Shown here: piece after piece, positions 9,825 through 53,700 of the stretch
Layout of the letters: each line of letters begins with the position of its first letter
Numbering within the stretch: the first letter of the stretch is position 1
Translations under genes and position numbers: made by a program
NCBI RefSeq assembly: GCF_000143415.4
Contig: NW_003314262.1
Coordinates: forward strand, 2,902,603-2,966,602
Source: Selaginella moellendorffii
Lineage: Eukaryota > Plantae > Lycopodiophyta
Length of the DNA: 64,000 bases
Reading direction: 5' to 3'
Notes under the pieces: model-generated
Database searches by the model: none
What the model saw: only the letters and a program-made list of their open reading frames with translations
What the model was told of the DNA's origin: nothing

Positions 9825-10806
9825 CAACTAAAGTGAATGTGAAGCAAGAATCAATTGTTATCCTCTCATCCTCTTATAGTTCAAGTGGAGAAGTCATGCT
9901 AGTATCAACATTGAATTCACTAGCTCCAGCTTTAGTAATATTCAAAGTTGTTAGCAATGCTTTCCAGTTTTCAAACCTCTCAATCGACGTGCACTTGTTT
10001 TTGTATAGTCTCGTAAGCAAGCTTCCATCCTCTTACAACAGCAACATTTTCTTCGAGCTACCACCTCTTATTAATAGCATAGGTTCCAAATGGAAGGGGA
10101 TGGAAAACAAGCAGGATGTCCATAATTGGTGCAAGATCAAGACTATACACTTCCAACATTTTGAAAGCACAGTGTTTATAGTTCATTGTGGTGGGTATTT
10201 AGATTGTGTGGATGAAGCATGCAATCGAGACCACTGTAGAAATTCTATTTTTCTTGAAGGGTTTGCAATCAATCCTCCAGTTTGTGACACTATTGTTATT
10301 GGATTCAAGTGTCGATTCTACAAAAATGCTCCTCTATGTCATACTATCTACAAAGCCAAAATGTACTACTTTCTTCCACATGATAGAAGAGCTATAGTGC
10401 ATGTTAGCACACACATACATCTAATGTAAGAAGGGATGCAAAAGAGTTCTCTTAATTGTTTCAAAAATGTTGTGCAAGAAGAGATTATGAGAAACTCATT
10501 TGCAACTCCAAAACATATTCAAAAGATTATCCTCAAGGATTTTATCGCAAACACCTTACTCAATGCAGGTTGCCAAAAGATAACTAAACAAGGCTAGCTT
10601 GTGGGACTTATTACAAGGAGTACAACTTGCTACTAGCCTAAGGAGGTACATTTGTTATATATCATACATTATAATAATATCTTTTTTTTACATTATATTA
10701 TTTAGGATAAAATCTTGAATATGTGAATCTCAAGAGGGGAAGTTGCTATAAAAAATTGACTCCATCCTTGAATTGAAACAAACCTATCCATATGAGTTCA
10801 TCCATG

Positions 10807-28635: not shown

Positions 28636-31600
28636 TTGAAGCCGAATGGAGGCGTGAGAACCGGACTCGCTGGTGAATATGCACTGTGTGTGCAGCGGAT
28701 CGTAGCAGCAAGGCTACTCTACCACTTACAGTTGGAGAGTGGCACTGAAATCTCCCGGGACGCCAAGTGGGCTGCGTGTGGGTGGCGGAGTGGGCGGCGG
28801 AGTTGGCGGCGAAGTTACAAACTGGGTGTGTCTTGAAGTGGACGCCGATGCACACGAGCGCGATGTGAGCGCGAGTGTGATGCAAGCGCGAATGGACGCT
28901 GATGCACACGAGAAACCTGTAGAGAAGGTAGATGAGCGCGAATGTGAGCATGATCGCGAGTGGGAGCGCGATGCGAGCGCGAGTGTGCGAGCACGAGTAC
29001 GAAGCAAAATGCAAAACCTAACCTCACACGCACGAAATGTCACGACGGTTGGTAATCCCGCCATGTTATCATTCCTCGGACTTGGGCGCCACCATTAATT
29101 TCTGGATTGCCGCGCGCATGCATGCACGTGAAATCCAAAAGAAATCCGCAACGTCATCATTCCTCAGACTGCATGCACGCAAAATCCAAAAGAAAGATCA
29201 TGATTGGGATATCATTTAATACCCTCGCTATATTTATACAATGCATGATTGGATATTCCAAAGCATCTTGTATTTCCAAAAATGCCAGATGTTCAGCTAA
29301 ATAAATTGTCAGAGGATTTGATGTGACGTTCAAGTGTGTGGGCTCATGCAATTTTGATCCCAAAAAATGCACCAAAAAATGCTCGGCGTCATCTGGCGTT
29401 ATCTCTTGAATGGTGTGGGGGCCATTTTCAGGGGCACATAGGAGTATATTCCTAGAATATTCTGACACGCGCGAGATTGTTTTGAGTTTTCTGGAGATCC
29501 AACCGTTAGATCGCAACTAGATTTTACAGAATGGTATACAATGTCCTTCTTGATGACTCTGCAAAGAAGCATCTCGATCGGACACCACATGAGACCACAC
29601 GAGCCTTACAATGTTTCAGGGGCATTTGCCATAGATCCGACTGTTATTTTGCTCCAAGATTCTACAGTTTGGTGTGCATTGACCTTTCCATCGACACTGC
29701 AAAGGGACATCACAATTAGATGCGGGATCACAAGAAACCAACTTCACTAACTCTGGTTTCACCAAGATGTAGGTAAGGAGTTATGAAATGAAAGGACCCT
29801 CTTTATTGAAATGTGTTTATGGTTCTAGGGGCATTGTGACATATCAAAGGATTTTTCATCAAGTTCTGTATTTGCATGTTTATCAAGCTACTGAATTGCT
29901 AAACCCTAAACCCTAAACATGTGGCAAATGCTGCGTGAAGAAAGATGCTCTTTCTGGGCAAATGCTGTAAGAGGCAGATGCCGAGCAGATGTATCTCAGG
30001 CTAGCAAAGGGGACAAACGAAAGCTAGCTATAAACATGACGGGAAGATTACTAGGCTGGTCCTGCAAAAATCAAAAACCATAATTGAAAACATTGAAAAT
30101 GCAAAAAGAAAGGTTTATAATATTTTTGAATTTTAAGCAACCAAAGGAATGTAAGTAGGGCATGTGTTTGTAAGTTTAAAAATGCCTCAACCACTTAAAT
30201 TCCCAAGTAAATAAAGCTGTTTCTATTTTTGGTACAGGTAAACTTTATAGCGTGTGGGCTCATGCAATTTTGAACTCAAAAATGCACCAAAAAATGCTCG
30301 ACTAGCATTATTCTTTGAATGGCGTGTGGCCTTATATTGCCATAAATGGACGTACACACACAGCATAATTATTCCTTTACACGGCGAATAATCTTGGCGC
30401 GGATCGCTGACACGGCATGGCAAAGTTCGAATCACTGACATGGCACAGCTGGATCGAGGCAAGGACATGATGTGACAAAGTTCAACCTCCGACAGCAAAG
30501 TCTAGAAGCTACTCAATTTGAAATTTGTTAGAGGAATCATAAGATCTGGTTTGTTAGAGGATTTGATGTGACGTTCAAGCGTGTGTTATTTTTGAATTCT
30601 CGAACTCATTCCTAGGTCTATCATTTTTGTGCGCCGTGTTCTTGGTTCCGCTGAGCGCAGTGAGCGCTGCTTGTGTAAGCAGCGTTGTGAGCTATGGTTT
30701 ATGCGTCTACAAGCGGTTGCGGCATTGCGAGCGCCATTGCGAGCGGCAGTTTATGCGAATGGCAGTTTGTGCAAGCGGCGCTACGAGCAGTTGCGGTGTT
30801 GCGAGCGGCGCTACAAGTAGTTGCGGTGTTGTGAGCGGCGCTGTCTTTGGTGTGGCTACCGCTTCCTCTTGATATTCGGCACTTGTGCTTCCTGGTATGT
30901 TCACCATGGAATGGCTTAGGACCACATTTAGAAATGGCATGAGGCCATATGCCATCTTGGGCCCTTGCAATTTCATGGCTAGCGTATTGTCATGTATGTT
31001 TTTACTTGCCTGCAGCTGTGTGTATATCAAGATGGCATGAGGCCTCATGCCAATTTTGTGAATGCAAAATTTCACGTGGGTGTCAATAGCATGTTTGAAT
31101 AATGGCATGTGGCCTCATGCTATTTGGTATGTTATGATTTAGGCCATTCTCCAATCATTTTTTGTATGGTCTTAACTTCTTTTCTGCACTTTCAGAATGG
31201 CCTTCAGGGTTGGGGAAAAGGTTTACATTTTGAATGGTGGGAAGAGAGTTGCAAAAGGGACCCTTGTGTCTATGGATCGGAACTTTGTTATACACTGTCA
31301 AAGGCTTGGGGAAGGCAATGCTACTATATCAGTAGAGACTGTCTTCAATGGGAATGTGGTTGCTATTGAACGAAGAGAGATGGTCGTCGGGGTAAATGTT
31401 GTTGTTGCCTTGAAAAATCTACAGAAGAAAGCAGATGTTGGGGACAGCACAAGTGCGACACATGTTCCCTCCGTAGATCTTAAGAACCGTGCTACATGGA
31501 TTCAGGCAAAGGTGTTTCTAAACAACCCCAAGGGGGAGGTGGTAGCTGAGGGTTTAGCCACAGTTGTCGATCCAAGAGATGCGGTTGCTAATCAAGAATT

Positions 31601-33017
31601 GGGCTGGGATGATATTGGAGTTGCGATTTTAGAGGTTGTTGACACAAAAGAAAACAGTCTGACTATTGGAAGCATTGTGCGGTGGAAATTGAGGCATTTA
31701 GTGTTTGAGAATGTGAAGGATTCACAATCAAACACCACTACAACTGATGACAAAACATCTCTTCATGGGAAAAGAAAGTACACCTTCCTAAAGCGCAGCC
31801 AAAGGGATCTGAGCAACGAACCGAAAAGGCCGAAAATGGCGATGGAGGTTCGAATGGTCTCGACAGTTGCTTGTTGCAAGAGGAGGTGCTGTCAACATGC
31901 TGATTGGGATGCTATTGAAGAGGAGAGAGCAAGATACAAGACATTGTCCTAGAAGGCAGCTCGCAATTTTGTGTATGAGGCATTACGGTCATCTGTTGAT
32001 GCTTCAGAACATCAGGTGGGGGGCATGGTCTTCCAGAGGGGTTTGGTCTGCATGAAGGCATGGAGAATCATTTATGGAGTCCCTCGAAGCACATTCTACA
32101 GAATCAAAACTGAGTTCGAGGAACAAAGGGTTCAACAGGCAGTCCATGGGAACGATGGTACGCAAAAAACCAGGGGTCATGTTGTATATGGAGAGGCAAT
32201 CTTCAAGAGGTTTGTCGAGACATGTAGCGAGCAGCAACCACATAAAACCCGCCTCTTGGAAGATGGAACACGAGACACCCAACGAGTTCTCCCTTCCATG
32301 TATACCAAGGGGGCCATATTGGAAGATGTGAATCGGGAACTCCAGAGTAATGGCTACAGGAAGCTGAGCCAATCTAGATTTAGTAGATTGTGGAGCAACA
32401 GGTTCAGGGATGTGAGTATAGGAAAGTACTCCAGCTTTTCAAAGTGTGACAAGTGCACTGCTATCAAAATGGCTTTGTCGAAGAATTCTTGCAGCGCTCA
32501 AGAGCGAGAGACGTTGGTTAGAAGGCGGCTCGACCACAACATCGAGCAGAGAAGCTGCAGGACTGCATATTATCATAACAGGATTCTCTCCATGGAGAGA
32601 CCTGACTCTTACCTCTGCATCATCCACGACAAAATGGACCAGAAAAAGACGTGCTTACCTCGACTCAATCCTGCCCCCAAGGCAATCTCTTCATCCATGC
32701 AGCTGCCTGTGTCTCTGTTTGGCATAATCGCTCATGGGCATGGTGCCCAGAACTATGGGAACTTCTTTGTACCTCTATGGGGTGGCGGGGGTGCAAACAT
32801 GATGATTGCGTCCCTAGCAAAACACTTAAGGTCTCTGCAAAGTGCGCAGACTGAGCTGAACGGCCAACCCTTGCATAAGGCCCTTGTCGATCGAACCCCA
32901 TACAGGGTTCAGCTGGAGGAGGAGCAAAGGCTTGCAGTATCGCGTGGGGCCCCATGCCATCCCAGTGAATATGTTGGCCGTCAGATTGTAGGGTTATCAC
33001 GTGAGGCTTCATGCCAT
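24052..33017. promoter_or_regulatory. Dispersed 22-bp palindromes ATGGCRTG-N6(often WGGCCW)-CAYGCCAT in copy 1 (mirrored in copy 2 and in the MITE)
   Basis: Full or near-full copies start at 24052, 24127, 25344, 25535, 25676, 27175, 28449, 28509, 28586, 30934, 31032, 31102, 32939 and 32996. Degenerate or half sites near 22758, 29410, 30319, 34338 and 34391. The regulatory role is inferred. Confidence 0.85.
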
Positions 33018-34338
33018 TCCGACGAGGCTGGTCGCCCGGTGAATGCACAGCCTCATCCAAACGAAGCAGAATCTCAAGGAAGTTCTTGCGGCCGATGTGG
33101 CCTTCCACCCCATCTTCTGCTCCAAACAGATAATGCTGGCAGTGAGAACAAAAACATGTACGTCTTCACGTACTTGGCGATGCTTGTTGCCAAAGGCATA
33201 TTTGAAACGGTTACACTTGGCTTTCTCATGGTTGGGCACACTCATGAAGACGTCGATGCCATGTTCAGTCACCTGGCAGAGTCCCTCCGGCGATCCAATG
33301 TCCTCACCCTCCCACAACTCTACGATGAATTCCAAAATTGCATCAAAGGCACTGTTGAAGCTGCACTTGTGACAGAGGTTCCAGACTTTAAGGGGTTTGT
33401 AAGAGGCTACATCAGGGACGGATCCGAAACGCTGATTGGCCACTCCAAGCCTCTTCAGTTTCATTTCAGCATGCGTGACGGTGCTCCAGTGATGAGGTAC
33501 AAGATGAGAGAATGGGACACACTGTGGCTGCCAGTGGATGGCATTGAACTCTTCAAGAGAGATCTCATAACTAGGGAACCTATGATTCCTCAGGGTTCCC
33601 CACGGCCGATGCACCTGGATGGACTCAAAGACCAGGAAAGTATAGTGGCCGGGATTAGACAGCATATTGCCTTCTGGAAGAGGGGGTTGGTGTTTGGTGG
33701 AGAATCCTATTTTAAGAGGTGCAAGCCTTTGCTCGAATACTGGGAGAAGATTATATCTGCTATCCAAAATGGGCCGGTTGTATATGAAGAATTGGAAGAG
33801 TCCTTTTGGCCAGAACCCAGAGCACCAGATAGTAGCGGAACAATGTCCTCTGGAAATGCAGTGACAGATAACGATGTTGAGGATCACTATTGTGGGCCGA
33901 GGAACAAGAAGCCGGATTCAGCATTCAATCCAGTACAGGTCTGCAAAGGAATGGTCGTGCTTGTCAAACCCAGTAATAAAAAACAAATGATATGGGTGGG
34001 GCGCTGCATCACTGATGCAGAGGAGGACGCGGAAACTAACTCCTTCAATGTAACTGTGGAGTGGTTCAAGCCAAGTTCCGGATATACGAAGGATTGCCTA
34101 GAAAAGAGATGGGTGCTAAATCCAAGGGATCCCAGCATGAGCATATCGGTGGATAATGTTGTGCATGGTTGGATGCGGAAGTAGAGTGCCACCATCACCT
34201 TGCCAGACCATGCAAGAGATGCAGCAAGAGCATTCATAACCCGGGTTCAAGGTGAGATTCATTAATATTCCTTTACTAAGTTTCTAATGTATTTTATTTC
34301 AAGGTGAACAATCCGAATCTGAATCAGAGGAGGCGTGA
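31197..34338 (+). pseudogene. Sola-type DDD transposase, ~1029 aa consensus; stops at 31950-31952 (TAG vs TGG) and 34182-34184 (TAG vs CAG); last intron 34252-34303
   Basis: FSKCDKC...H zinc motif and acidic triad IIHDKMDQKK / LQTDNAGSENKN / FLMVGHTHEDVDAMFS. The 4-bp TSD also fits Sola. Two N-terminal TNP1-like VAxG...LG repeats. Superfamily call from recalled motifs. Confidence 0.8.
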
Positions 34339-35453
34339 TGGCATGTGGCCGTTTGCACTAGTATATCTTAATACCGGTCTGAGAAATAGAATGGCATGTG
34401 CCCTTAGGCCTTTTACTAAATCACCTTTGAAAGAAATGCAAGCCTCTATGTCGTAAAAAAAAGGTACTAGAGAAATTCCTTAATAATATGAATGTTATTT
34501 AGTTTCATGAAAATACACTAAGGGTCAAATGAGTTAAATGACTTCTCCAGACTAGCAATGCCTCTTGCTAATTAGATTCATCCTAGATATGTCTAGCCCC
34601 TGGACAAAAAACATATAATTTCACGTCATTTTCAAATACTTGAAAATTTGTACCTAGTCCCATTTTACTGAATAAATCCCACTTTAACGAAATAGAGCTT
34701 AAATGCCTTCCCCAACAACTTCTAACAAATGAAACAATGAGTATAAAACTCAAAGAACCAAAAGCTTGAAGAAGCCTATACCCAAGTCTTACCTAATAAT
34801 GATCACAAGTCTCATAGAAACTAACTTCAATGCTAAAAAGCTCTATTTCGTTAAAGTGGGATTTATTCAGTAAAATGGGACTAGGTACAAATTTTCAAGT
34901 ATTTGAAAATGACGTGAAATTATATGTTTTTTGTCCAGGGGCTAGACATATCTGGGGCATGGTGACTAGCGCGGTGACTTTGTATCCAGACTGAGTCCAT
35001 CTGGTTGTATAATAAATCTCATTGTCAAGGTGAACAAGCCGAATCTGAAGCTAAAGAAGAGCGATGGCATGCGCGCACACACTATTTGTTTGTTCATTGA
35101 GCGTGTGGTGAGCTTTCCAAGATGAATGTCATTCCTATTAGCCAGACATATAACTTAATGGTGAGAACATTTAGATATTATTCAATGTTATCTTTTTCTA
35201 ACGAATCTAATTGTGAAGGTGTAGCAAGAGGCATTGCTAGTCTGGAGAAGTCATTTAACTCATTTGACCCTTAGTGTATTTTCATGAAACTAAATAACAT
35301 TCATATTATTAAGGAATTTCTCTAGTACCTTTTTTTTACGACATAGAGGCTTGCATTTCTTTCAAAGGTGATTTAGTAAAAGGCCTGAGAGCACATGCCA
35401 TTCTATTTCTCAGACTGGTATTAAGATATACTAGTGCAAAGGGCCACATGTCA

Positions 35454-38400
35454 TCACGCCTCCTCTGATTCAGATTCGGATTGTTCACCTTGAAATAAAA
35501 TACATTAGAAACTTAGTAAAGGAATATTAATGAATCTCACCTTGAACCCGGGTTATGAATGCTCTTGCTGCATCTCTTGCATGGTCTGGCAAGGTGATGG
35601 TGGCACTCTGCTTCCGCATCCAACCATGCACAACATTATCCACCGATATGCTCATGCTGGGATCCCTTGGATTCAGCACCCATCTCTTTTCTAGGCAATC
35701 CTTCATATATCCGGAACTTGGCTTGAACCACTCCACAGTTACATTGAAGGAGTTAGTTTCCGCGTCCTCCTCTGCATTAGTGATGCAGCGCCCCACCCAT
35801 ATCATTTGATTTTTATTACTGGGTCTGACAAGCACGACCATTCCTTTGCAGACCTGTACTGGATTGAATGCTGAATCCGGCTTCTTGTTCCTCGGCCCAC
35901 AATAGTGATCCTCAACATCGTTATCTGTCACTGCATTTCCAGAGGACATTGTTTCGCTACTATCTAGTGCTCTGGGTTCTGGCCAAAAGGACTCTTCCAA
36001 TTCTTCATATACAACCGGCCCATTTTGGATAGCAGATATAATCTTCTCCCAGTATTCGAGCAAAGGCTTGCACCTCTTAAAATAGGATTCTCCACCAAAC
36101 ACCAACCCCCTCTTCCAGAAGGCAATATGCTGTCTAATCCCGGCCACTATACTTTCCTGGTCTTTGAGTCCATCCAGGTGCATCGGCCGTGGGGAACCCT
36201 GAGGAATCATAGGTTCCCCAATTATGGGATCTCTCTTGAAGAGTTCAATGCCATCCACTGGCAGCCACAGTGTGTCCCATTCTCTCATCTTGTACCTCAT
36301 CACTGGAGCACCGTCACGCATGCTGAAATGAAACTGAAGAGGCTTGGAGTGGCCAATCAACGTTTCGGATCCGTCCCTGATGTAGCCTCTTACAAACCCC
36401 TTAAAGTCTGGAACCTCTGTCACAAGTGCAGCTTCAACAGTGCCTTTGATGCAATTTTGGAATTCATCATAGAGTTGTGGGAGGGTGAGGACATTGGATC
36501 GCCGGAGGGACTCTGCCAGGTGACTGAACATGGCATCGACGTCTTCATGAGTGTGCCCAACCATGAGAAAGCCAAGTGTAACCGTTTCAAATATGCCTTT
36601 GGCAACAAGCATCGCCAAGTACGCGAAGACGTACATGTTTTTGTTCTCACTGCCAGCATTGTCTGTTTGGAGCAGAAGATGGGGTGGAAGGCCACATCGG
36701 CCGCAAGAACTTCCTTGAGATTCTGCTTCGTTTGGATGAGGCTGTGCATTCACCCGGGCGACCAGCCTCGTCGGAATGGCATGAGGCCTCACGTGATAAC
36801 CCTACAATCTGACGGGCAACATATTCACTGGGATGGCATGGGGCCCCACGCGATACTGCAAGCCTTTGCNNNNNNNNNNNNNNNNNNNNNNNNNNNNNNN
36901 NNNNNNNNNNNNNNNNNNNNNNNNNNNNNNNNNNNNNNNNNNNNNNNNNNNNNNNNNNNNNNNNNNNNNNNNNNNNNNNNNNNNNNNNNNNNNNNNNNNN
37001 NNNNNNNNNNNNNNNNNNNNNNNNNNNNNNNNNNNNNNNNNNNNNNNNNNNNNNNNNNNNNNNNNNNNNNNNNNNNNNNNNNNNNNNNNNNNNNNNNNNN
37101 NNNNNNNNNNNNNNGGGGGCAGGATTGAGTCGAGGTAAGCACGTCTTTTTCTGGTCCATTTTGTCGTGGATGATGCAGAGGTAAGAGTCAGGTCTCTCCA
37201 TGGAGAGAATCCTGTTATGATAATATGCAGTCCTGCAGCTTCTCTGCTCGATGTTGTGGTCGAGCCGCCTTCTAACCAACGTCTTTCGCTCTTGAGCGCT
37301 GCAAGAATTCTTCGACAAAGCCATTTTGATAGCAGTGCACTTGTCACACTTTGAAAAGCTGGAGTACTTTCCTATACTCACATCCCTGAACCTGTTGCTC
37401 CACAATCTACTAAATCTAGATTGGCTCAGCTTCCTGTAGCCATTACTCTGGAGTTCCCGATTCACATCTTCCAATATGGCCCCCTTGGTATACATGGAAG
37501 GGAGAACTCGTTGGGTGTCTCGTGTTCCATCTTCCAAGAGGCGGGTTTTATGTGGTTGCTGCTCGCTACATGTCTCGACAAACCTCTTGAAGATTGCCTC
37601 TCCATATACAACATGACCCTTGGTTTTGTGCGTACCGTCGTTCCCATGGACTGCCTGTTGAACCCTTTGTTCCTCGAACTCAGTTTTGATTCTGTAGAAT
37701 GTGCTTCGAGGGACTCCATAAATGATTCTCCATGCCTTCATGCAGACCAAACCCCTCTGGAAGACCATGCCCCCCACCTGATGTTCTGAAGCATCAACAG
37801 ATGACCGTAATGCCTCATACACAAAATTGCGAGCTGCCTTCCAGGACAATGTCTTGTATCTTGCTCTCTCCTCTTCAATAGCATCCCAATCAGCATGTTG
37901 ACAGCACCTCCTCTTGCAACAAGCAACTGTCGAGACCATTCGAACCTCCATCGCCATTTTCTGCCTTTTCAGTTCGTTGTTCAGATCCCTTTGGCTGCGC
38001 CGTAGGAAGGTGTACTTTCTTTTCCCATGAAGAGATGTTCTGTCATCAGTTGTAGTGGTGTTTGATTGTGAATCCTTCACATTCTCAAACACTAAATGCC
38101 TCAATTTCCACCGCACAATGCTTCCAATAGTCAGACTGTTTTCTTCTGTGTCAACAACCTCTAAAATCGCAACTCCAATATCATCCCAGCCCAATTCTTG
38201 ATTAGCAACTGCATCTCTTGGATCGACAACTGTGGCTAAGCCCTCAGCTACCACCTCCCCCTCGGGGTTGTTTAGAAACACCTTTGCCTGAATCCATGTA
38301 GCATGGTTCTTAAGATCCACGGAGGGAACATGCGTCGCACTTGCGCTATCCCCAACATCTGCTTTCTTCTACAGATTTTTCAAGGCAACAACAACATTTA

Positions 38401-38596
38401 CCCCGACGACCATCTCTCCTCGTTCAATAGCGACCACATTCCCATCGAAGACAGTCTCTACTGATACAGCAGCATTGCCTTCCCCAAGCCTTTGACAGTG
38501 TATAACAAAGTTCCGATCCATAGACACAAAGGTCCCTTTTGCAACTCTCTTCCCACCATTCAAAATGTAAACCTTTTCCCCAACCCTGAAGGCCAT
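35454..38596 (-). pseudogene. Sola-type transposase of copy 2; stop at 38369-38371 (TAG vs CAG), +1 frameshift near 36755, assembly gap inside
   Basis: ORFs 38369-38596, 36647-38320 and 35527-36792 are near-identical to the copy 1 protein and open at the two positions where copy 1 has stops. Confidence 0.8.
36870..37114. other. Assembly gap (245 N)
   Basis: Length matches the corresponding transposase segment of copy 1 (~32679-32923). Confidence 0.99.
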
Positions 38597-40092
38597 TCTG
38601 AAAGTGCAGAAAAGAAGTTAAGACCATACAAAAAATGATTGGAGAATGGCCTAAATCATAACATACCAAATAGCATGAGGCCACATGCCATTATTCAAAC
38701 ATGCTATTGACACCCACGTGAAATTTTGCATTCACAAAATTGGCATGAGCCCTCATGCCATTAGTGGTACCACTAATGGCATGAGGCCTCACGCTATCTT
38801 TGGCCCCTACTAGCCTGTTGCTATATTCCTTTTGCCTTGCTGCAACTGTATATATAATGGCCTAAATCATAACATTCCTCATAGCATGAGGCCACAAGCC
38901 ATTATTCACACATGCTATGGACACCCACGTTAGATTAGTCATTCACAAAATTGGCATGAGGCCTCATGCCATCTTGATATACACACAGCTGCAGGCAAGT
39001 AAAAACATACATGACAATACGCTAGCCATGAAATTGCAAGGGCCCAAGATGGCATATGGCCTCATGCCATTTCTAAATGTGGTCCTAAACCATTCCATGG
39101 TGAACATACCAGGAAGCACAAGTGCCGAATATCAAGAGGAAGCGGTAGCCACACCAAAGACAGTGCCGCTTGCAACACCGCAACTACTCGTAGCGCCGCT
39201 CGCAACACCGCAACTGCTCGTAGCGCCGCTCGCACAAACTGCCACTCGCATAAACTGTCGCTCGCAATGGCGCTCGCAATGCCGCAACCGCTTGTAGACG
39301 CATAAACCACAGCTCACAACGCCGCTTACACAAGCAGCGCTCACTGTGCTCAGCGGAACCAAGAACACGGCGCACAAAAATGATAGACCTAGGAATGAGT
39401 TCGAGAATTCAAAAATAACACACGCTTGAACGTCACATCAAATCATCTGACAAACCAGATCTTATGATTCCTCTGACAAATTTCAAACTGAGTAGCTTCT
39501 AGACTTTGCTGTCGGAGGTTGAACTTTGTCACATCATGTCCTTGCCTCGATCCAGCTGTGCTATGTCAGTGATTCGAACTTTGCCATGCCATGTCAGCGA
39601 TCCGCGCCAAGATTATTCACCGTGTAAAGGAATAATTATGCTGTGTGTGTACGTCCATTTATGGCAATATAAGGCCACACGCCATTCAAAGAATAATGCT
39701 AGTCGAGCATTTTTTGGTGCATTTTTGGGTTCAAAATTGCATGAGCCCACACGCTATAAAGTTTACCTGTACCAAAAATAGAAACAGCTTTATTCACATG
39801 GGAATTTAAGTGGTTGAGGCATTTTTAAACTTACAAACACATGCCCTACTTACATTCATTTGGTTGCTTAAAATTCAAAAATATTATAAACCTTTCTTTT
39901 TGCATTTTCAATGTTTTCAATTATGGTTTTTGATTTTCTCAGGACCAGCCTAGTAATCTATTTGCATCCCGTCATGTTTATAGCTAGCTTTCGTTTGTCC
40001 CCTTCGCTGGCCTGAGATACATCTGCTCGGAATCTGCCTCTTACAGCATTTGCCCAGAAAGGGCATCTTTCTTCACGCAGCATTTGCCACAT

Positions 40093-40124
40093 GTTTAGGG
40101 TTAGGGTTTAGGGTTTAGGGTTTA
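40093..40124 (+). repeat. Short interstitial plant telomere repeat (TTTAGGG)n / telo-box in the spacer between the two divergent genes; shorter in copy 1 (~29900-29918)
   Basis: gtttagggttagggtttagggtttagggtttag. Confidence 0.85.
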
Positions 40125-41338
40125 GCAATTCAGTAGCTTGATAAACATGCAAATACAGAATTTGATGCAAAATCCTTTGATATGTCACAATGCCCCTAGG
40201 ACCAGAAACACATTTCAATAAAGAGGGTCCTTTCATTTCATAACTCCTTACGTAGATCTTGGTAAAACCAGAGTTAGTGAAGTTGGTTTCTTGTGATCCC
40301 GCATCTGATTGTGATGTCCCTTTGCAGTGTCGATGGAAAGGTCAATGCACACCAAACTGTAGAATCTTGGAGCAAAATAACGGTCGGATCTGAAACATTA
40401 TAAGGCTCGTGTGGTCTCATGTGGTGTTCGATCGAGATGCTTCTTTGCAGGGTCATCAAGAAGGACATTGTATACCATTCTGTAAAATCTAGTTGCGATC
40501 TAACGGTTGGATCTCCAGGAAACTCAAAACAATCTCGCGCGTGTTAGAATATTCTAGGAATATACTCCTATGTGCTCCTGAAAATGGCATGCGGCCCCAC
40601 GCCATTCAAGAGATAACGCCAGATGACGCCGAGGATTTTTTGGTGCATTTTTTGGGATCAAAATTGCATGAGCCCACATGCTTGAATGTCACATCAAATC
40701 CTCTGACAATTTATTTAGCTGAACATCTGGCATTTTTGGAAATACAAGATGCTTTGGAATATCCAATCATGCATGGTATAAATATAGCGAGGGTATTAAA
40801 TGATATCCCAATCATGATCTTTCTTTTGGATTTCGCGTGCATGCAGTCCGAGGAATGATGACGTTGCGGATTTCTTTTGGATTTCACGCATGCGCGCACC
40901 GATCCAGAAATTAATGGTGGCGCCCAAGTCCGAGAAATGATGACGTGGCGGGATTACCAACCGTCGTGACATTTCGCGCGTGTGAGGTTAGGTTTTGCAT
41001 TTTGCTTCGTACTCGCGCTCGCATCGCGCTCCCACTCGCGCTCCCACTTCTCTACAGGTTTCTCGTGTGCATCGGCGTCCACTCGCGCTTGCATCACACT
41101 CGCGCTCGCATCGCGCTCATGTGCATCGGCGTCCACTTCAAGACACACCCAGTTTGTAACTTCGCCGCCAACTCCGCCGCCCACTCCGCCACCCACACGC
41201 AGCCCACTTGGCGTCCCAGGAGATTTCAGCACCACTCTCCAACTGTAAGTGGCAGAGTAGCCTTGCTGCTACGATCCGCTGCACACACAGTGCACATTCG
41301 CCAGCGAGTCCGGTTGTCATGCCTCCATTCGGCTTCAA

Positions 41339-44300
41339 ATGGTAAGTCTTTTAGGCCAAGTAGAAAATGGCATGAGGCCACATGCCATTCAGTAGCAACA
41401 TTGGCATGCACCGATTGGGCTCTCGAGTGCAGTCCGGTTACAGATGGCGTGTAGCCTCACGCCATCTTAGGATGCAGCCTCAAGACATCTGATGCAGTGG
41501 TGAATGGCGTGTGGCCTCACGTTATTTCCAGCTACTAGTTTTTCATCTGCAGCTCTAATTGTTGTGCATTTCTGAACAGGCGAGGAATTGCGTTCTTCTT
41601 CCAACCACTGTCAATGTGGATGCAGAGAAGGGGGAGGAGCTCACCAGTTGGACTTTCGGGATGGAAGGCGAGGATCTGAGGCTGTACAACACAGATGGTG
41701 GGAGAAAAGAATGCATGGGGATCCTCATCCAAGTGACAGACACTCCATGCAGTTCCATGCAAGAATATGGACTGGCACTTGTGGTAGAGACAGCGTCTGC
41801 CTTCAAGATCCACCTTGCACATCCTAGCGGCTTCCCATAGGGGGGCAGCGGCTATGAGGAATTCCTAGAGGGAGCTAGGGAGAGGTTGTCCAGGAGGCCC
41901 ACAATTTCAAAGACGCTGCGGGTCTATGAAGATCACATGGAATCCACGGACCTCACCTACGGCGATGTTCAAAAACTATATTCCAACATTGAGCCATTGA
42001 GAGTGACTCCAGTTTGCGAAGCAAAGGGGAAGGGGGTCGATCTGGAAACTACCTCGAAGCAGAAAAGGGTGGTCAAGCTCAAGCCAACGTCCGACTCTCC
42101 TGCTCCAAAAAAGAAGCTACTCCGTGATGCCATTGCCTCGGGTTCAAACACTACACCCACCAAAAAGAAGAGCCGCAAAGAGCAGAAAGAGCAAGAAGAG
42201 GCAGCAAAAATCGTCGCAGATAATAGTACTTGTTACTATTCCAACAAAGTATATACAATCGACGTGAGCCGTATCGACATCCAAAGCAAATACAACCACA
42301 GGCTAGTATCTGATGAGTGGGTGGAGAAACTGAAGCAGAAGATGCTGGCAAGTCCAGTAACACCCGACATCGCAGACGTGATCCCCTACTACCGAACAAT
42401 GAAGGGCGAGACGAGGTTTCCAGACTTGATCAATAGGAAGGTGTTGGACGATCAGAACATCCGGTTCTATGCCGTCTCCGGGCAGCATTCTAGCTTGGCG
42501 ATGCAAGAGATAGTTGTGGATATTATGGTGGGCGAGGAGGTGAAGAAAGTCTTCAAGACAAGAGTTGTCCGCCTGATAAAAGGCAACTCGCCCCTCCGAT
42601 CTATCATATACATCTCCCACGCGCAGAATGTCAAGCAAGAAACGTGCTACAAATTGGGTCTGCACGAGACATTGGCACGAACATGGAAGCTCTGGGTTCA
42701 ACTGAAGAAGCCACAAAAACCAGGACAAGGACGTGCACTAGCAACTAGCGCCTGGCAGGTAAGCCTCGTTGCATGTGGCATAGCATGTGGCCTCACGCCA
42801 TTTCCATTGCAGGAATTCTCGAGTCTTCTCTCGAAAACACTGGGGGTCAATGACACACTCAGCATCCATAACATTCTACTCGCGACAAAAGTTGTTTTTG
42901 ACAAATGGGTAGATGTGCTGAGGAGGTACCATGACGGGGAGTTGCCAAACTCAATGGGTGTGGAGGACGGCCGGAAGCCCAATGATTTGAAGCTCAACGC
43001 CTTGCGTTTCTCGCGGTCTCTAGACGACGACGACCTTCTGACAGTGGCTAATGCTCTTCTACGTGGTGAGGTAGTCTTCAACAAGACCAAAATGACTCCC
43101 GGCCATATTGTGACATACAAGGACTTGTGCACGACTCTGAGAGCTCGTGCGCTATTGAAGGATTGGATCTTCGAGCAAGTGGCCGTGGAGAGGGTGAGCA
43201 TCGACACCACGCAAGAGATGATGGAAGCGCTGGAGTTGTCAAATGAAGACATCGACGAGTACGTGAAGGGGGCCCCCAAGTTCATCGATCTGCTGCGGGA
43301 TGCCACGAAAAGTAAAGCTGAGAAGTTGGATCAGTATCCAAATTTCATTAAGATTGATGTCGACCGTCGGCTTCAGAAACAGCTCGACCCCGCAGCAGAG
43401 GCCTATCGAGAACCTTACCGGGTATACTTGAATTCGGATGAGGATCAAAGGTGGAGGAGCATCGTTTCCCGCGGAGATGAGCAGGTCAAGAACATCTTTT
43501 GTGTGATGGACTTCACAAATGAGGAGATCACTCATGCAGACGAAGTCAGCTCCATCATTGACTTAATGGTGGGACTTGCGGAGGTGGAATCTTCAGTCCA
43601 CTATATGATCTACGACTCCGAATCCTATCACAAGTTCTGGAAGGCCTTGAACGAGGTGAAGGCTCGGTTGAAAGGCAAGGAGATGCGGGAGATCCATGGG
43701 ATAATGGCTAAGAAGAAGATACCGACGAATGTCCGCATCTTCACACTCACCCATGTTATTGGTCCTGCAGCAGAGTGGGACTGGAGTGACTTCCCAGCTT
43801 CGTTCGACAAGGCCAATCGAATTGATCTGAGGGAGGTCAATTTACCCGTGCCTGAGGAACTGAAGACGGCTATGGAGCTTTCGAATCCAAAGAAAGCTCC
43901 AGGTGCAGCATGGGAAATGCTCAGCTGGGTCTTCAACGCAATAGCGGGTGGGTCACCTGCTTCCGACTCCAAGGGCAAATGCGTTGTCGAGTACAACTGT
44001 GGCGGACTATTCTTTCGAGCCGCACTACTCAAGGGTGTCCCATGTGTTGCGGTGACAAACTCCATTGAAGAGGTGACTTCAATGGAGCATATAATTACAG
44101 TTGCCAAAGAAAAACAGTATCTTCTCTGCGAACCTGGTGAGTACACACTTTAAGTTTAAATGTTATCTCACAAGCTCTGTATGCAGGAGCGTGGCCACCC
44201 CCAGATGCTGAAACGGCGTTAACAGCTACTGTTGAAGATACCCATGTTGGGCCGAGCTCACAACCTGCACAAGGTAAGGTCACGTGAGGCCTCACGCCAT

Positions 44301-47008
44301 TTTGATTATAGATCGTTGTGAATATTCAGACACGAGGACTGAAAAGCGCACTGGTGGCTCCTCGAAGAAGGACAAACAGACAAGCAATAGGAAAAAAGGA
44401 GGTACAAATTATATTTGCAATGGCGTGTGGTCTCATGCCATTCCTTGCAGGAGAAACTTCTTCAAAGGCAAAACAGGCAAGCACCAGCCAAGCTCAAACT
44501 GACAGTGGTCATAAAAAGCGAAAGCACGTTGGACAGTCGTCGAGATCAGAGGCATTTGATTCGAAAAGGAAGAAGGGCAACGAAAAGATGATAGGTAATG
44601 CCTCGCGGTTATGGCATGTGTGCTCATGCCATTCATTGCAGATCAAGGGCTGAGTGAAAGCAGGCAGTCACCACCTCATGACTCAGATTCCTATGGCGGA
44701 CTCCCCTTCCCCAATCTCAATGGAGAGGTACAATGGATGAGGGATGCTTTTCAAGTCAGGGCCACGTTTTTCTCATCTCGTCGTCTTCGAAGGGTGCAAG
44801 AACGTGCAGAAACCATGTTAAGACAGTCGGGTGAGGATACAGTCCTAGGTCACGCACTAAAACAGGCTATGGATGTCTTGTATTTTGAGATGGAGATTCG
44901 GCCAGATGATTTTCCCAAGATGGTCCTGGAAGAACAAGCCATCCAGCCTGAGCAGCCTATGGAAGAAATGCAGGAGGGGGATGAGGAGCCAGAGAAAGAT
45001 AATGAGCAGGAAGAGCAGAAGGACGAAGAGGAGGACAAAGAAGAGGAGGACGAAGAAGAGGAGGACGAAGAAGAGGAGGACGAAGAGGACTTGGATGGTC
45101 CTCACAATGGTGACGATCACAATAACGACGACGACGATGATGACGACGATGGCCAGCCTGAGGTGGCCAAAGAGCAGCGGAGGAAGGTCATACAAGACAA
45201 ACCATCAGGTAAATAATAGTACATCCATTCCTAACCTTTTACCATTTCTAACATTGTCCATGTAGGTCGCAGAGCAAATGGTAAGTAGAGATTATTCAGT
45301 TGAATTTACAAACTCTAGCCTTTAGTGTCGAGGAAGGATAGTGCCAAGCAAGGGTCGAAACGTATGTCCAATCCTTCAGAATCAGCAGTGCGCCCAAGTG
45401 ATATCGGTCCTAGTTCCTCAATAGCAGTTGATGGTAAATACAATATAGTCGATTCAATGTGCTAATGAGTTTGTTTTTAGTAGCACGGGAGGATACCATC
45501 TCAATCGAAGGGAGATATTTGGACATGCATATGGATCCGCCAGTGGACTCTACTTGGCTGCAAGAGTCATCAGAGCTGGTGGAGGCTACTATCCATATCA
45601 ACGCCAAGCAAGCTGACCACGCTCCACTTGATGCTGCCCATACCACTGAGTCAATCTTGTCCACGTATCCAACTGACGGTGACCAGGCGCCATTGGACCC
45701 GCATGAGGCCGCCCCAGCCGCCGAGCCGGTCGTATCCTCATTTCCAACGGACTCAACGTGTGCCCAATCGTCTGACTATGCGCCGTTGGAACCTCCCTAC
45801 ACCGCCCCTGCTGCCTGTTTGGCCATGTCCACTTTGCCAACGGAAGCACCAGCTGAAATGGCGTGTGATCACACGCCATCGGAACCACCCCATGCCACTG
45901 TTGAGCCAGTTGTACCAGAGTCTACAGCTGAAATGGCATGTGCCCACACGCCATCGGATGCGATTGACCCCACATTGCAGAGGAGAGTATTTCCGCCCTT
46001 CACGTTTCCTCGACCAAAACCCTCTCAACGACCATCGGGAGCAACATTTGCTAATATTGTAGATGGTAAAATTGACTTGTACCATTTTTTATGCTGACGC
46101 ATTTCATTTCAGAGTCACGGCGAAGGTACTGTATCGTTTTTGATCTGAACGGTGTCCTTTTCTCCCATAAGCGTGGCTCGTCCTCGAATGTCATTGCACC
46201 TTCCAAAGCCTGCGGTCGCAAGTTGGTCAAAAGAGACAGATTCACATTAATCACACGGGAGAAACTGTGGGATCTAATAATGACCATGCGACACTTAAAA
46301 CAGAGGGCCGGGTTCAATTTGCAATTGGGAGTTTGGACATCCATGATGCGCCACAATGCATTAACGTTGCTACAGATGATGCACGATCAGACGCGAGTAA
46401 TATTACCATTTGACTTTCTCCTAACGCAGGAGGATTGCTTGACTATGGTCCATGTGAGGGGTAGCAAGCCCATCTTCGTCAAGCCAGAGGCTGTAGTGAT
46501 GAACCGGACTACTAGCTCAAGTGAAATCCTCATCATCGATGACTCGCCGATTAAAACTGCAGCGAACACGCACACATATGCAGTGCACCCCATCTCTTGC
46601 AGTATGGAAACTAGGGAGAAGAAACCGTATGTTCTGGGGGACCTTGCAAAACGGCTTGGAGCGATGGTGATAGAGAACCGGCCAGTCCAGGAGGTGGCTG
46701 CAGAAATCAACCAAATGGCAGATGGAACGGTATATCAGAAGCCATTTGATCGGACAGACACCAGTCATCATTTATGGCATGTATATTGTCTAGCCAAGCA
46801 CTATCCGCATCTCCATAATCTGCTCAACTGGATGGGTTCTTCGACCACTGAACATGAGTGTGGACGTATTAGAGAAGAGATGGCATTACTATTGGGTTTA
46901 AATCCTAATAGTGTGGAGAGTGATGAAATTCCAAGATTATTGTATAGGCGTTGGAGGCAAAAAATACAATGGCATGGAACCCCATGTCATAATAAGTTAT
47001 ATTTTTAA
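41339..47008 (+). pseudogene. Cargo gene of copy 2, predicted 11 exons, ~1665 aa; single premature stop at 41838-41840 (TAG vs GAG in copy 1)
   Basis: Exons: 41339-41341 (ATG), 41580-42758, 42813-44136, 44187-44273, 44312-44401 (alternative in-frame acceptor 44329), 44451-44594, 44642-45208, 45266-45280, 45326-45433, 45481-46065, 46113-47008. All introns GT-AG. Introns 3-10 are phase 1, 38-57 nt. Total 4998 nt in one frame. Motifs: NHRLVSDEWVEKLKQKM...FYAVSGQHS (ParB-like); NPKKAPG...CVVEYNCGGLFFRAALLKGVPCVAV (MTase-like); KKRK NLS-like; D/E tract; IVFDLNGVL...GVWTS...FVKP...ILIIDDSPIK (NIF/FCP1 HAD). Confidence 0.8.
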
Positions 47009-47793
47009 ATAAATACATGCCATCTCAGACTGTATTAATATTAAAAGACAATTCTTTGAGAGGATTTGCATTATACTAGAAGTGTTACAGCATGTAATTG
47101 GAAGTCTACGAAGTTGTTTTATTAATAAGGGGAAAGTAAAGATTGAATGGGGACTTGGGCTCCACCTAGACTCGGAGCAACTGAGCCAATATTAAAAGGA
47201 TGGAAAGAAATTGGACGACGATGACAAGGAGAAGAGAGAGGTGAAGCAGTGGTAGGGGGAGGAGAAGTGATTGAGTAGACATTTCCTTGTTTAAAATAAA
47301 ATGGCATGTGCCTCAATGCAATTGAATTTTGTTATATTTATATACTATATAAAGGTTTGGAAACCTTATTTTACAAGTGGGATAATGACAATTCCCACTT
47401 TAACGAAATAGAGCTTTAAAGAAGAAATCATGATGCAACTCACAATATCTTCCTCAACACATCTATAAGCCAAACTTCATAATGCCAAAGCTAATGAAGA
47501 GCATTTCTGCATCAATCCAAAAGCTAAGCACAATGGAGCTATGCCCAACAAGTGATCACTAAATGATCCTCCATAAATCCATCTTAAAGCAAGACATAAT
47601 TCACTTTATAACAAGCATAAGAAGAATCATCAATGATCGATATAGTCCAACTCAAATTCAATAGGGACTCAAATTGTTTAATATCGAACACTAATTCGTC
47701 CTCTCGGGAAGTTAGCATAGTTCACGACTAAATCATTTTTCAAGGAAAAGCTAAAGCTCAACCCCTACTAAACAATCTCATCTAAAACACAAC

Positions 47794-50700: not shown

Positions 50701-53700
50701 TAAGGAAGTTGGATATACCCTTACGGGGGATAAGTTGCTTGTGTTGCGATATAGTAAGTCAATGTCATAAAAGGAAATACTCATTGTCAAGAAAGCCATC
50801 ATTGGGACACCTGAACACTCTAGAACACCAGAAGGTGGTGTTTGATGTCGCGAGGGCAATGGAGAAAGCCCAAGGGACTAAGTCCCTAGCGAATGATGGA
50901 TAGAAGGTGCTATCCAAATGTCCAAGGTTGCGGAGACAGGAGAGGACTGTCTACCCGAGTTGGACAAAGCCAAAAATGGAATTTTGGCAATGCTAGTGAT
51001 GGGCATGTAAAGGCCCATAAGCAACAATGTAATCCCAGTGTGTGGGATTATAAGGTGAGCATACCCGGATTAAGGAACCACTCCCTAGGCTATTGGGTAG
51101 GTTCATCCCTAAGAATACTTGCTAAAGCAAGATAGAAAGTGCAAAGCTATCCTCCTGGTCTAGAGGAGAATGACCAAAGGAAAGGTGTGAAGCCAAAAAG
51201 CAAGAAGTAAGGGGATAGAACCGAACCGTAGGAATCAAAGGGCATAACCAAGATGCTTTATTTCGTTAAAGTGGGATTTATTCAGTAAAGTGGGACATTA
51301 ATTAGCATGTGTCCACATGCCATTTCCTAGTACTTAATTAATATTTATTAATATTTCTATCAGTTTTTTAATTTATTTTTTTATATTTCACAATATTATA
51401 ACACAAAATCATATGAAAAGTTTTTAATTTATAAATTATAAAGTTAAAACTTCAATTTTTTATTGTTGTTATAAAAATGGCATGTGGCCACACACCATAA
51501 GTGGGATAATGAAAAATCCCACTTTAACGAAATAAAGCATCAAGGTTGGTTATGCCAGCTGGGAGTGGAAAATCAAGTGGGGGCTCAAGGGTGTTGCCGC
51601 TAGCAACCGTGATGCCATGGAGAGTCTAAAATATGGAATTGTCCATGTTAGACTATATGGCATTTGGAAGGCTTGCAAAAAGGGAGGCCTTAGCAAGCTG
51701 AGGGATAGAGTTCCTTCAAGGTTCCCAAAGACTATTCTAGGTAGCGTAGTACCTAGAAAGGCCAAGTGTAAATGGTTCATGGAACGCGCGAAATCAGAGT
51801 GGCACAGCAGAAGCGTGGTCTTGAAGCTTGCCATGAGGCAAGGTTATCAAGGTTAGGGAAGTAGTTCCCGAGTGTTCAAAGAGAGGGCTTTGAACGAAAG
51901 TCGATGGTCAAGGACTTTCACGCTTATGCAGGAACCATGTTACAATGGTCGGAGAACTTGCCAAGTGAGATTGGCACGTCGGGGGAACAAAGACCCTAGT
52001 TGAAGGTGATAACTTCAAAAAGGGTGGGCCATGGGGCCGAGCATGGAGGAGTCCATGCATGATCACAGACATGTCAAGTGAGAGGACTTGGCAGTGTGGA
52101 GGAACTAGGTTCCTAAGCTGTGATCTGTAGCGCGCTTTAAAAATAGGTTGGTGCACCGGCGTGGGGAGTCACGCCAGGCATCTAGTGTGATGCCGTCCGT
52201 AGATGCATATACGGAGGTTGGGTTCGAGTCCCGACCCTCTAGTGCTTGGGTTCGAGTCCCAAATCACTAGGGCGTGGTGATGGTTTGGAATATGAGGACA
52301 CTCATATTTCGGTGGTCATGGACTCTCAGTGGGGAGACTGGTTTGGGCACACCGCCAAGCGAGGGATGCCTCGGAGTCGTGATGCACGGTTAGATTGCTT
52401 AGTGTGAAAGCTCGGCATATCTAACTTGAACGCTTTGGTGCAAATGGCACCAAGGTCGTGGTGAGTGAGATGGGGACACCTAATCTCAGTTGCTATGAAC
52501 CCTTGGCCGTAAGGGCTAGCTTGGGTGCACCGCCAAGTGTGGGGGATGCCCCCGGGGTTATAGTCAACAACTTGGAGGTCTAGAAGACCAAGTACCTCTT
52601 GGCAACTCTGTTAAGGTGCCAAGGTGAGATCACTAGGTGATCTTATGGCCAGATAAGGACAAGGTCCTTGGTTGGCTAAGGAATGAAGTTCTTGGTTCAA
52701 AATGTTGAAATTAAACTGTTTAAGATGGTGTGGCTTGGTCGTGATGACCAAGTGGGAAGAGCACCTAAGGGAAATAAACTATGTCCGTCCGATGGCATAG
52801 TGAGTCCGAGGAAAGTAGTCTCTATAAAAGACCCATGGGAGGGTCACGAAGTTGGGCCATGGATAGAGCCCATAGCAGAATATGCTAAAGAGATATACTA
52901 GGGGTGAACATCCTCCGGACTTGGCAAAGAAGAGTCTTTGCTATGGAACCGAAAGGATACCTCAAAGATGGAGGTAGCGATCCGATGTTGCTGGGTGCAA
53001 CAATCAAGGATAGGAGCAAAGGACTAGTGGCCAAAGTTTGGGCCATGGAATTTAATGGAAGGGATCCAAATGGCAAAGTTAGCCAAGGAACACTAATGTG
53101 TTCGATGCTAACAGCTTGTGGGAAAGGAAGCGGACTTTCAAGGACGGATTCCTAAGTGCTCCAATTTGGCGAAGTAAAGGCTCCAAGTGAGGGAGCGGTA
53201 AGGTAGCCAAATGATAGGGCCATGGACAGCCCTAGCACAAAGTATGATAAATGGAACTTAGTGCCCAAGGTGGCACGAAATAGAAGAGAGGATGATGGTG
53301 CCCTCAAGTAATGAACTTCCTAGGATAGGGAAGTGGAGTTGCACAATCTGTGCAATGCAAGGTGTTGGAGACACCTAGAAAATTGACTTCCAAAAAGTCA
53401 AAAGAGTAAAAGTTCCAAGGTGCAAACATTCAATAGATGGAAATTAAGACTACTCGAGAAGGAGTAGTGGGATTGACTTAGAGAAGGGTCTCTAAGAAGT
53501 TTAGCGAGAACTAAACCAATAAAAGGGGAGAACCATTACATGTGGTCCAATCAGTCTCTAAGTTGGAGAGACTACGCTCCTTAAAGGATGGACAAGGCAT
53601 GGTGAGCCTTTGATGTCAAACCATAGACAAAGATTGGCTAGGTGCCAAGGATGGAAATGGTAACACGTGTGGGTGTTACTTTATGAAAGGGTTTACCGTT

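What the first reader, a model, noticed from the sequence alone, without database searches (positions are those of the whole stretch)
41339..47008. Many separate ORF-track pieces are one 11-exon gene: ParB-like + MTase-like + NLS/acidic + FCP1-type phosphatase fusion
Seen: GT-AG introns of 38-57 nt (eight consecutive phase-1 introns, a 15-nt micro-exon and an ATG-only first exon) join all pieces in one frame of 4998 nt. The same structure is present in copy 1. Inference: a transposon cargo combining a prokaryote-style ParB-methylase module with a CTD-phosphatase-like domain and a histone-chaperone-like acidic tract is a very unusual architecture and could couple DNA recognition to chromatin or transcription control.
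Basis: partly seen in the sequence, partly recalled or inferred. Interest (0 to 1): 0.85.

Follow-up and report, generated by a model that had tools for sequence, protein, structure and literature searches.

The report
Plant transposon's broken ParB-pseudomethylase-phosphatase helper gene
This is a broken copy of a spliced helper gene carried by a 12-kb plant cut-and-paste transposon; its predicted protein joins a ParB-like part, a likely inactive DNA-methylase-like part and a phosphatase-like part, and likely binds a mirror-image DNA word repeated about two dozen times inside the element, which would help the element recognise itself and escape silencing, a variant of a design already reported in a brown alga.

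Summary
The 11-exon geometry is real: 4998 nt, eight consecutive phase-1 GT-AG introns, a 15-nt micro-exon; a simple splice signature recovers 8 of 10 introns against 0.45 by chance, and intron 2 sits at the same place in a Selaginella homologue. But the frame is not open: this copy has a stop at codon 88, copy 1 has two others, both decay neutrally, and no RNA supports the fusion. The gene is cargo of a 12-kb Sola-like DNA transposon (24-bp TIRs, 4-bp TSDs, head-to-head DUF7869 transposase; two copies plus a MITE). Methylase fold is supported through a homologue but the catalytic motif is gone; the NIF/FCP1-like domain passes Pfam yet has DLN for DxD; ParB support is weak. A 20-bp palindrome occurs 24 times in the element, mostly non-coding, four times over intron branch points. 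Best reading: a non-catalytic self-recognition/anti-silencing factor. ParB-methylase cargo on Sola1 is published (Ectocarpus, PMC12477816); this is a new variant.

The parts
34838..47416 (.). DNA transposon copy 2 (12.6 kb), 24-bp perfect TIRs starting AAGCTCTATTTCG, flanked by 4-bp TSD TAAA
   Evidence: removing both copies restores a continuous host repeat
22662..34700 (.). DNA transposon copy 1 (12.0 kb), inverted relative to copy 2, own TSD AAAT; 96% identical over the cargo arm, 98% over the transposase arm
35527..38596 (-). Sola-like DDD transposase gene of copy 2 (DUF7869), head-to-head with the cargo gene; broken by a stop, a +1 frameshift and a 245-N gap
   Evidence: Pfam PF25273 E 3e-40; full-length relatives at 31-34% in L001-L003
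31197..34265 (+). Transposase gene of copy 1 (about 1020 codons, stops at codons 252 and 996)
41339..41341 (+). Predicted ATG-only exon 1 (unsupported by RNA)
   Evidence: alternative donor seen
41580..42758 (+). Exon 2: N-terminal region with premature stop at 41838-41840, basic tract, then ParB-like domain (about 42237-42750; motif SGQHS at 42477-42491)
42813..44136 (+). Exon 3: conserved helical domain (about 42813-43400, pLDDT 70-90) and beta-class amino-methyltransferase-like domain (about 43410-44120) without the [DSN]PP[YF] motif
44187..46065 (+). Exons 4-10: basic, acidic (45010-45150) and Pro/Ala-rich low-complexity linker incl. 15-nt micro-exon 45266-45280
46113..47008 (+). Exon 11: NIF/FCP1-like HAD domain (about 46127-46575) with motif I DLNGV (46142-46156), then a His/Cys-containing tail; last ~14 codons lie in a 67-bp segment that is inverted relative to copy 1 and run X3
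   Evidence: Pfam PF03031 26.6 bits, cut-off 21.8
35065..47321 (.). 24 copies of a 20-bp palindrome, consensus TGGCRTGWGGCCWCAYGCCA, 19 non-coding; 7 in cargo introns 1, 2, 4, 5, 6
23015..28635 (-). Copy 1 of the cargo gene, same 10 introns, two stops
51253..51540 (.). 288-bp MITE with related TIRs, TSD CAAG and two palindromes

Best explanation
The locus is a broken copy of a spliced accessory gene of a 12-kb Sola-like DNA transposon, and its intact form likely encodes a non-catalytic self-recognition factor that would bind the element's own 20-bp palindromes and help keep the element active against host methylation. Shown: the element (TIRs, three independent 4-bp TSDs, empty site), the head-to-head transposase, the exon chain, the premature stops, the palindrome array confined to the element and its MITE, and loss of the methylase and phosphatase catalytic motifs. 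Inferred: the ParB-like plus helical half binds the palindrome as a dimer (as ParB binds parS); the methylase-like domain serves as a DNA or methyl-cytosine reader, not a writer; the acidic linker and FCP1-like domain recruit host chromatin or RNA polymerase II factors; the net effect is VANC/TnpA-like anti-silencing or transposition control.
For: Element anatomy. Palindrome: 24 in copy 2, 16 in copy 1, 2 in the MITE, 1 elsewhere in the window; null mean 0.11, max 1 of 100; 19 of 24 non-coding though 64% of the element is coding (p 2e-5), the pattern reported for VANC motifs in introns and intergenic parts of VANDAL21 (PMC5735166, passages). In 48 half-sites position 5 is A 29 / G 17 while its CpG partner stays C in 47, so the site looks selected and tolerates T or C on one strand. 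Homologues in Selaginella moellendorffii, the liverwort Calypogeia fissa and unnamed assemblies keep ParB-like, helical and MTase-like parts (7 of 9 hits). The Selaginella homologue's C-terminal half resembles PF01555 N6_N4_Mtase models, several ParB-fused (TM 0.36-0.41 by query, 0.35-0.62 by target); profile-profile match to phage beta-class methylases covers the C-terminal motif stretch (pairwise E 0.0097). None of 20 family sequences has a [DSN]PP[YFW]-type motif in the methylase part. Copies decay mostly by transitions at CG/CHG (121 of 185), so the host methylates them. Same layout published for Sola1-1_Ec32.
Against: No binding, activity or expression data. Raw RNA runs X9-X11 (about 12% of each read) give no reads on the ParB, MTase or HAD exons and no junction for introns 2-10. 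ParB identity rests on weak signals (PHROG E 0.26; profile E 0.08; Foldseek viral E 0.03-0.05) and the motif is SGQHS without the Arg of ParB CTPases (motif recalled). My own model is low-confidence in the ParB and MTase parts (mean pLDDT 55) and found no significant fold match. The palindrome could be bound by the transposase instead. Copy-to-copy differences show no purifying selection (40 of 117 synonymous vs 37.3 expected, p 0.33). The Selaginella homologue ends right after the methylase part, with no HAD domain.
Confidence: 0.5

Rival explanations
1. Two genes, not one: the ParB-methylase protein ends at the stop just inside intron 3 (44151-44153) and the phosphatase-like part is made from a separate or alternative transcript.
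Against: Introns 3-7, 9, 10 carry full splice signatures and keep one frame; no AATAAA-like signal between exon 3 and exon 11; exon 11 has no Met before HAD motif I.
Confidence: 0.2
2. The protein is a transposition cofactor like CACTA TnpA: it binds the palindromes to bend or pair the ends for the transposase, with no role in silencing.
For: The MITE keeps two palindromes 50-60 bp inside its TIRs; palindromes lie near both ends of copy 2 (35065, 35381, 47302).
Against: Most copies lie in the promoter region between the two genes and in introns, kilobases from the ends. Not exclusive: TnpA itself is reported to be an anti-silencing factor (10.64898/2026.08.24.746577, passages).
Confidence: 0.18
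3. The protein is an active N6A/N4C methyltransferase that marks its own element, as proposed for Sola1-1_Ec32.
For: Fold similarity to PF01555; most half-sites contain CATG; an Asp is kept at the end of the strand where the catalytic motif would start.
Against: No PPY in any family member examined and a degenerate SAM-binding motif; 63 of 115 phage control fragments carry the motif (fragments were cut at fixed length).
Confidence: 0.1
4. Passively captured host gene pieces (Pack-type cargo) with no function for the element.
For: Both copies are broken and drift neutrally; no expression seen.
Against: The family form is open at codon 88 (copy 1 and run X3); the module is conserved at 18-26% identity with the same intron across lineages; element-specific palindromes are built into its introns.
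Confidence: 0.07

Closest known systems
Sola1-1_Ec32 of Ectocarpus (PMC12477816; passages and supplement rows seen; figures not seen)
   Same: Large DDE element with 4-bp TSD and a second gene on the opposite strand encoding ParB-like plus amino-methyltransferase domains; authors propose self-binding and self-modification.
   Different: Here 12 kb not 21.5 kb, 24-bp not 282-bp TIR, land plant, 1665 not 1104 aa, methylase motif lost, added acidic linker and FCP1-like domain, internal palindrome array (the words phosphatase and palindrom do not occur in that paper's main text).
VANDAL/VANC anti-silencing system (PMC5735166, passages) and Spm TnpA (10.64898/2026.08.24.746577, passages)
   Same: Transposon accessory gene plus element-specific motifs gathered in introns and intergenic DNA.
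   Different: Unrelated protein; 20-bp dispersed palindromes rather than 8-10-bp motifs in tandem repeats; no functional test here.
Beta-class N6A/N4C methyltransferases, PF01555, including phage ParB-MTase fusions and Marchantia DN4MT1 (10.1101/2021.02.12.428880, passages)
   Same: Fold of the Selaginella homologue and C-terminal motif stretch.
   Different: Catalytic motif absent, SAM motif degenerate; no direct comparison with DN4MT1 sequence was possible.
FCP1/SCP-type HAD phosphatases, Pfam NIF PF03031
   Same: Passes the Pfam cut-off; Asp nucleophile, WTS and IIDD motifs present.
   Different: Motif I is DLNGV, lacking the second Asp and the Thr of DxDxT (motif recalled); no BRCT or UBL partner domain seen.
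ParB-parS
   Same: ParB-like domain followed by a helical domain, with a palindromic candidate site (parS palindrome: PMC8367383, passages).
   Different: SGQHS instead of the Arg-containing CTP motif (recalled); similarity below significance; no ParA.
DUF3723 (PF12520), conserved Starship cargo (10.1101/2021.12.13.472469, passages)
   Same: Liverwort homologue P0006 is nearest to DUF3723 clusters by language-model features (0.93, 151 of 256); also cargo of large transposons.
   Different: Lead only: no Pfam match; fungal tyrosine-recombinase elements.

Membership tests
Sola DNA transposons | 4-bp target site duplication | tested here: met
   AAAT, TAAA and CAAG on three insertions; feature from PMC10741241 (passage)
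Sola DNA transposons | Terminal inverted repeats | tested here: met
   24-bp perfect TIRs on both copies
Sola DNA transposons | DDD transposase | tested here: inconclusive
   Three Asp motifs (HDKMD, xDN, GHTHEDxD) kept in L001, L002; Pfam DUF7869; catalytic role inferred, no fold match
Sola DNA transposons | Sequence similarity to Repbase Sola1 transposases | not testable with these tools
   No Sola reference sequence held; the defining paper was not available
Beta-class amino-methyltransferase (PF01555) | Methyltransferase fold | tested here: inconclusive
   Homologue P0001 resembles PF01555 models, 1 of 10 rows meets the naming bar; own model inconclusive; profile E 0.0097; no Pfam hit
Beta-class amino-methyltransferase (PF01555) | Catalytic motif IV [DSN]PP[YF] (recalled) | tested here: not met
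   DFTN here; DLRR, DSAN, DANS, DATT in homologues
Beta-class amino-methyltransferase (PF01555) | SAM-binding motif I FxGxG (recalled) | tested here: inconclusive
   EYNCGG aligns to DxFxGSG but is degenerate
ParB/Srx N-terminal domain | Profile or fold similarity | tested here: inconclusive
   PHROG 1033 E 0.26; profile E 0.08; BFVD ParB rows E 0.03 and 0.05
ParB CTPase | Arg-containing GxxR nucleotide motif (recalled) | tested here: not met
   SGQHS in the window protein and 3 of 3 homologue families covering it
FCP1/SCP HAD phosphatase (PF03031) | Pfam NIF above gathering cut-off | tested here: met
   26.6 bits vs 21.8, E 5.5e-6
FCP1/SCP HAD phosphatase (PF03031) | Catalytic DxDx[TV] motif I (recalled) | tested here: not met
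   DLNGV in both copies
VANC-type anti-silencing system | Element-specific motif gathered in non-coding parts | tested here: met
VANC-type anti-silencing system | Protein binds the motif and causes loss of methylation | not testable with these tools
   needs experiment
Replitron | No TIRs, short direct terminal repeats | tested here: not met
   TIRs present; feature from PMC10741241
GingerRoot | 6-bp TSD, TA termini, 100-150 bp TIR | tested here: not met
   4-bp TSD, AA termini, 24-bp TIR; features from PMC6839031 (passages)

The most novel reading that the evidence does not exclude
The element encodes a single all-pseudoenzyme anti-silencing protein: a ParB-like clamp plus a dead methylase that reads a palindrome whose variable position accepts thymine or methyl-cytosine, so it homes in on silenced copies, and brings a dead CTD-phosphatase domain to RNA polymerase II; because four of its binding sites lie on its own intron branch points, it also tunes its own splicing. 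That would be a eukaryotic parS-like self-addressing system wired into transcription and splicing.
Probability: 0.1. Interest if true: 0.85.

Novelty: new variant of a known kind. Interest (0 to 1): 0.45.

Why it matters
How transposons survive DNA methylation in their hosts is known in molecular detail for few systems (VANC, TnpA). ParB-methylase accessory proteins were proposed to be a new class, but no target site was named in the passages read. This element supplies a sharply defined candidate site (20-bp palindrome, also in its MITE), and shows a land-plant branch in which the methylase motif is lost and an FCP1-like domain is added, so binding, not writing, may be the conserved job. A binding assay with one fragment and one oligonucleotide would test it. 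The specific locus is a decaying copy and has no likely function for the host.

Tried and rejected
No whole genome is held, so copy number and intact copies could not be counted. Word-based homologue searches found nothing for exon 2, exons 2-3 or exon 11. PDB sequence searches: nothing meaningful. PHROGs, NCBIfam, PADLOC and Pfam scans of the 16-member alignment gave no credible family. tblastn against phages: nothing. Single-sequence fold was useless (pLDDT 32); the alignment-based fold gave no significant Foldseek or VIA match, which does not exclude any fold. HMMs from phage methylases and 10 ParB-like N-termini scored family members no better than reversed controls. The Atlas does not hold the window protein or P0008. 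No RNA holder was listed. Metagenome loci L001-L003 are too short to show a cargo gene and lack the palindrome. Two of nine representative hits (P0003, P0007) were dropped as repeat-driven. A loose-end motif from run X13 is not in the window. Rfam found nothing at the rRNA-like stretch. Rejected: one giant foldback element (two separate TSDs and a clean empty site show two insertions 137 bp apart); Replitron; GingerRoot. Literature searches: ParB+methylase+Selaginella+transposon+phosphatase 0 papers; DUF7869 0 papers; some searches gave background only. The red-algal and 2011 review papers cited for similar proteins were not seen (not held; the other not tried) and may already describe phosphatase fusions.
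Full report
Observation. I rebuilt the model from the sequence. Eleven exons from 41339 to 47008 total 4998 nt. All ten introns are GT-AG with G at -1; intron 1 is 238 nt and intron 2 is 54 nt (both phase 0), introns 3-10 are 38-57 nt and phase 1. Nine of ten have a CT[AGC]A[CT] branch-point motif 18-25 nt before the acceptor. A simple short-intron signature returns 9 sites on the + strand, 8 of them the predicted introns at exact length, 1 on the - strand, and 0.45 on average (max 3) in 300 shuffles; the pattern was set after I had seen the introns. Independent support exists for intron 2: the RefSeq Selaginella moellendorffii homologue P0010 aligns with an 18-residue gap exactly over it, and homologues predicted from unspliced contigs begin or end near that point. 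The frame, however, is not open. This copy has TAG at codon 88; copy 1 (23015-28635, - strand) has a sense codon there but two other stops. The contigs of run X3, which keep the introns and cover all 30 bins, agree with copy 1 at that codon and at 26 of the 31 variant positions I compared (31 of the 40 rows shown; 44 further rows were not shown). The last 14 or so codons of this copy lie in a 67-bp segment that is inverted relative to copy 1 and X3. Differences between the copies are neutral (40 of 117 synonymous, 37.3 expected; only codons 1-200 show a slight excess, p 0.03) and are mostly transitions at CG or CHG (121 of 185 transitions).

Expression. No RNA holder was listed. Three raw RNA runs of the same species label (X9-X11, about 12% of each read) put no reads on the ParB, methylase or HAD exons; nearly all laid reads are partial matches to a 40-nt stretch at 41242-41281 or to the acidic repeat. 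Contigs of X2, X13 and X20 (RNA only guessed) cover mainly intron 1 and the start of exon 2 at low depth. One X2 contig (depth 4, 29 nt on the short side) skips 72 nt with GT-AG ends, using the predicted intron-1 acceptor and a donor equivalent to 41509. So the acceptor has slight support, the ATG-only exon has none, and the fusion transcript is not shown.

Context. Self-comparison shows two inverted 12-kb arms. They are two separate insertions: copy 1 at 22662-34700 with TSD AAAT, copy 2 at 34838-47416 with TSD TAAA, each with 24-bp perfect TIRs. Removing both restores a continuous host repeat that aligns to another copy at 17880-18400. A 288-bp MITE with related TIRs and TSD CAAG lies at 51253-51540. 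Each element carries, head-to-head with the cargo gene, a ~1020-codon DUF7869 gene (E 3e-42) with three conserved Asp motifs and full-length relatives at 31-34% identity in L001-L003. Both transposase copies are broken. TIRs, 4-bp TSDs and a DDD-type protein fit Sola (PMC10741241, passage); similarity to Repbase Sola1 could not be tested. Short introns and the named homologues point to a non-seed land plant (inference).

Domains. phmmer against 1.84 billion representatives gave 9 hits; 7 are real homologues, including S. moellendorffii SELMODRAFT_409495 and a Calypogeia fissa protein, and 2 are repeat-driven. The ParB-like part has a conserved ADxxPY and SGQHS pattern but only weak links to ParB and lacks the Arg of the CTPase motif (recalled). 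The liverwort homologue is nearest to DUF3723 by features, a conserved Starship cargo; this is a lead. A helical domain follows, the best-predicted part of my model. The methylase-like part is supported through the Selaginella homologue, whose Atlas model resembles N6_N4_Mtase proteins, several ParB-fused, and by a profile match over the C-terminal motifs (E 0.0097). The catalytic PPY motif is absent in all 20 family sequences checked. My own fold searches were inconclusive. Exon 11 passes the Pfam NIF cut-off but reads DLNGV at motif I. The acidic tract gave only low-complexity hits.

The palindrome. A 20-bp palindrome, TGGCRTGWGGCCWCAYGCCA, occurs 24 times in copy 2, 16 in copy 1, twice in the MITE and once elsewhere in the 64 kb (up to 3 mismatches; null mean 0.11; similar counts with a fixed seed). 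Nineteen of 24 are non-coding (p 2e-5). Seven lie in cargo introns, and in introns 2, 4, 5 and 6 the half-site overlaps the branch-point motif. In 48 half-sites position 5 is A 29 or G 17 while position 4 stays C in 47; plain CpG decay would hit both, so the site looks selected. The distant transposase relatives L001-L003 lack it.

Mechanism. Shown: element, gene geometry, stops, motif array, lost catalytic motifs. Inferred: the ParB-like and helical parts bind the palindrome; the dead methylase reads DNA; the acidic and FCP1-like parts recruit host factors; the result is self-recognition that counters silencing, as VANC does through motifs in introns and intergenic DNA (PMC5735166, passages) and as reported for TnpA. 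I give this 0.5. Rivals: a separate phosphatase gene (0.2), a pure transposition cofactor (0.18), an active self-marking methylase (0.1), passive cargo (0.07).

Known art. [quoted passage not shown] I could not read the cited red-algal paper. PMC4738411 (passages) mentions ParB-HTH-fused methylases in chlorophytes but no phosphatase. A search for ParB, methylase, Selaginella, transposon and phosphatase together found 0 papers. Unchecked notes of this scan report the same three-part cargo and palindromes in other genomes, so the design recurs. Verdict: real, broken at this locus, a new variant of a known kind; interest 0.45.

Noticed in passing
window 41242-41281 (and 28693-28732 in copy 1): A 40-nt stretch about 60 nt upstream of the predicted ATG matches a very abundant RNA almost exactly; its flanks look like the 3' end of the large-subunit rRNA (recalled; Rfam gave no hit). 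Possibly a captured rRNA piece in the 5' leader.
   Followed up: partly
window 34701-34837: The two elements inserted 137 bp apart in opposite orientation into the same host repeat, suggesting local hopping or a target preference.
   Followed up: yes
window 51253-51540: AT-rich 288-bp MITE of the same family with two palindromes.
   Followed up: yes
window 8632-9831, 10807-12720, 47794-49515, 53739-55534: Four copies of another repeat (80-91% alike) with nested 6/12/23/46-bp tandem arrays built on GAGTCC/GACCC units; no Pfam match in the ORFs tried.
   Followed up: no
window 20149-21299 and 58639-59790: A 1.15-kb direct repeat, 96% identical, 38 kb apart, bracketing both transposon copies; could be long terminal repeats of an element they sit in.
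   Followed up: no
window 40093-40125: Five copies of a plant telomere-like unit (GTTTAGG) between the two genes, shorter in copy 1.
   Followed up: no
window 41010-41210 and 39165-39266: Short CG-rich tandem repeats just upstream of each gene, variable in number between copies.
   Followed up: no
window 36870-37114: A run of 245 N inside the copy 2 transposase; the aligned part of copy 1 has the same length.
   Followed up: partly
window 46661-46963: His/Cys-rich tail after the HAD domain with a weak RING-H2 hit (E 0.03, below cut-off).
   Followed up: no
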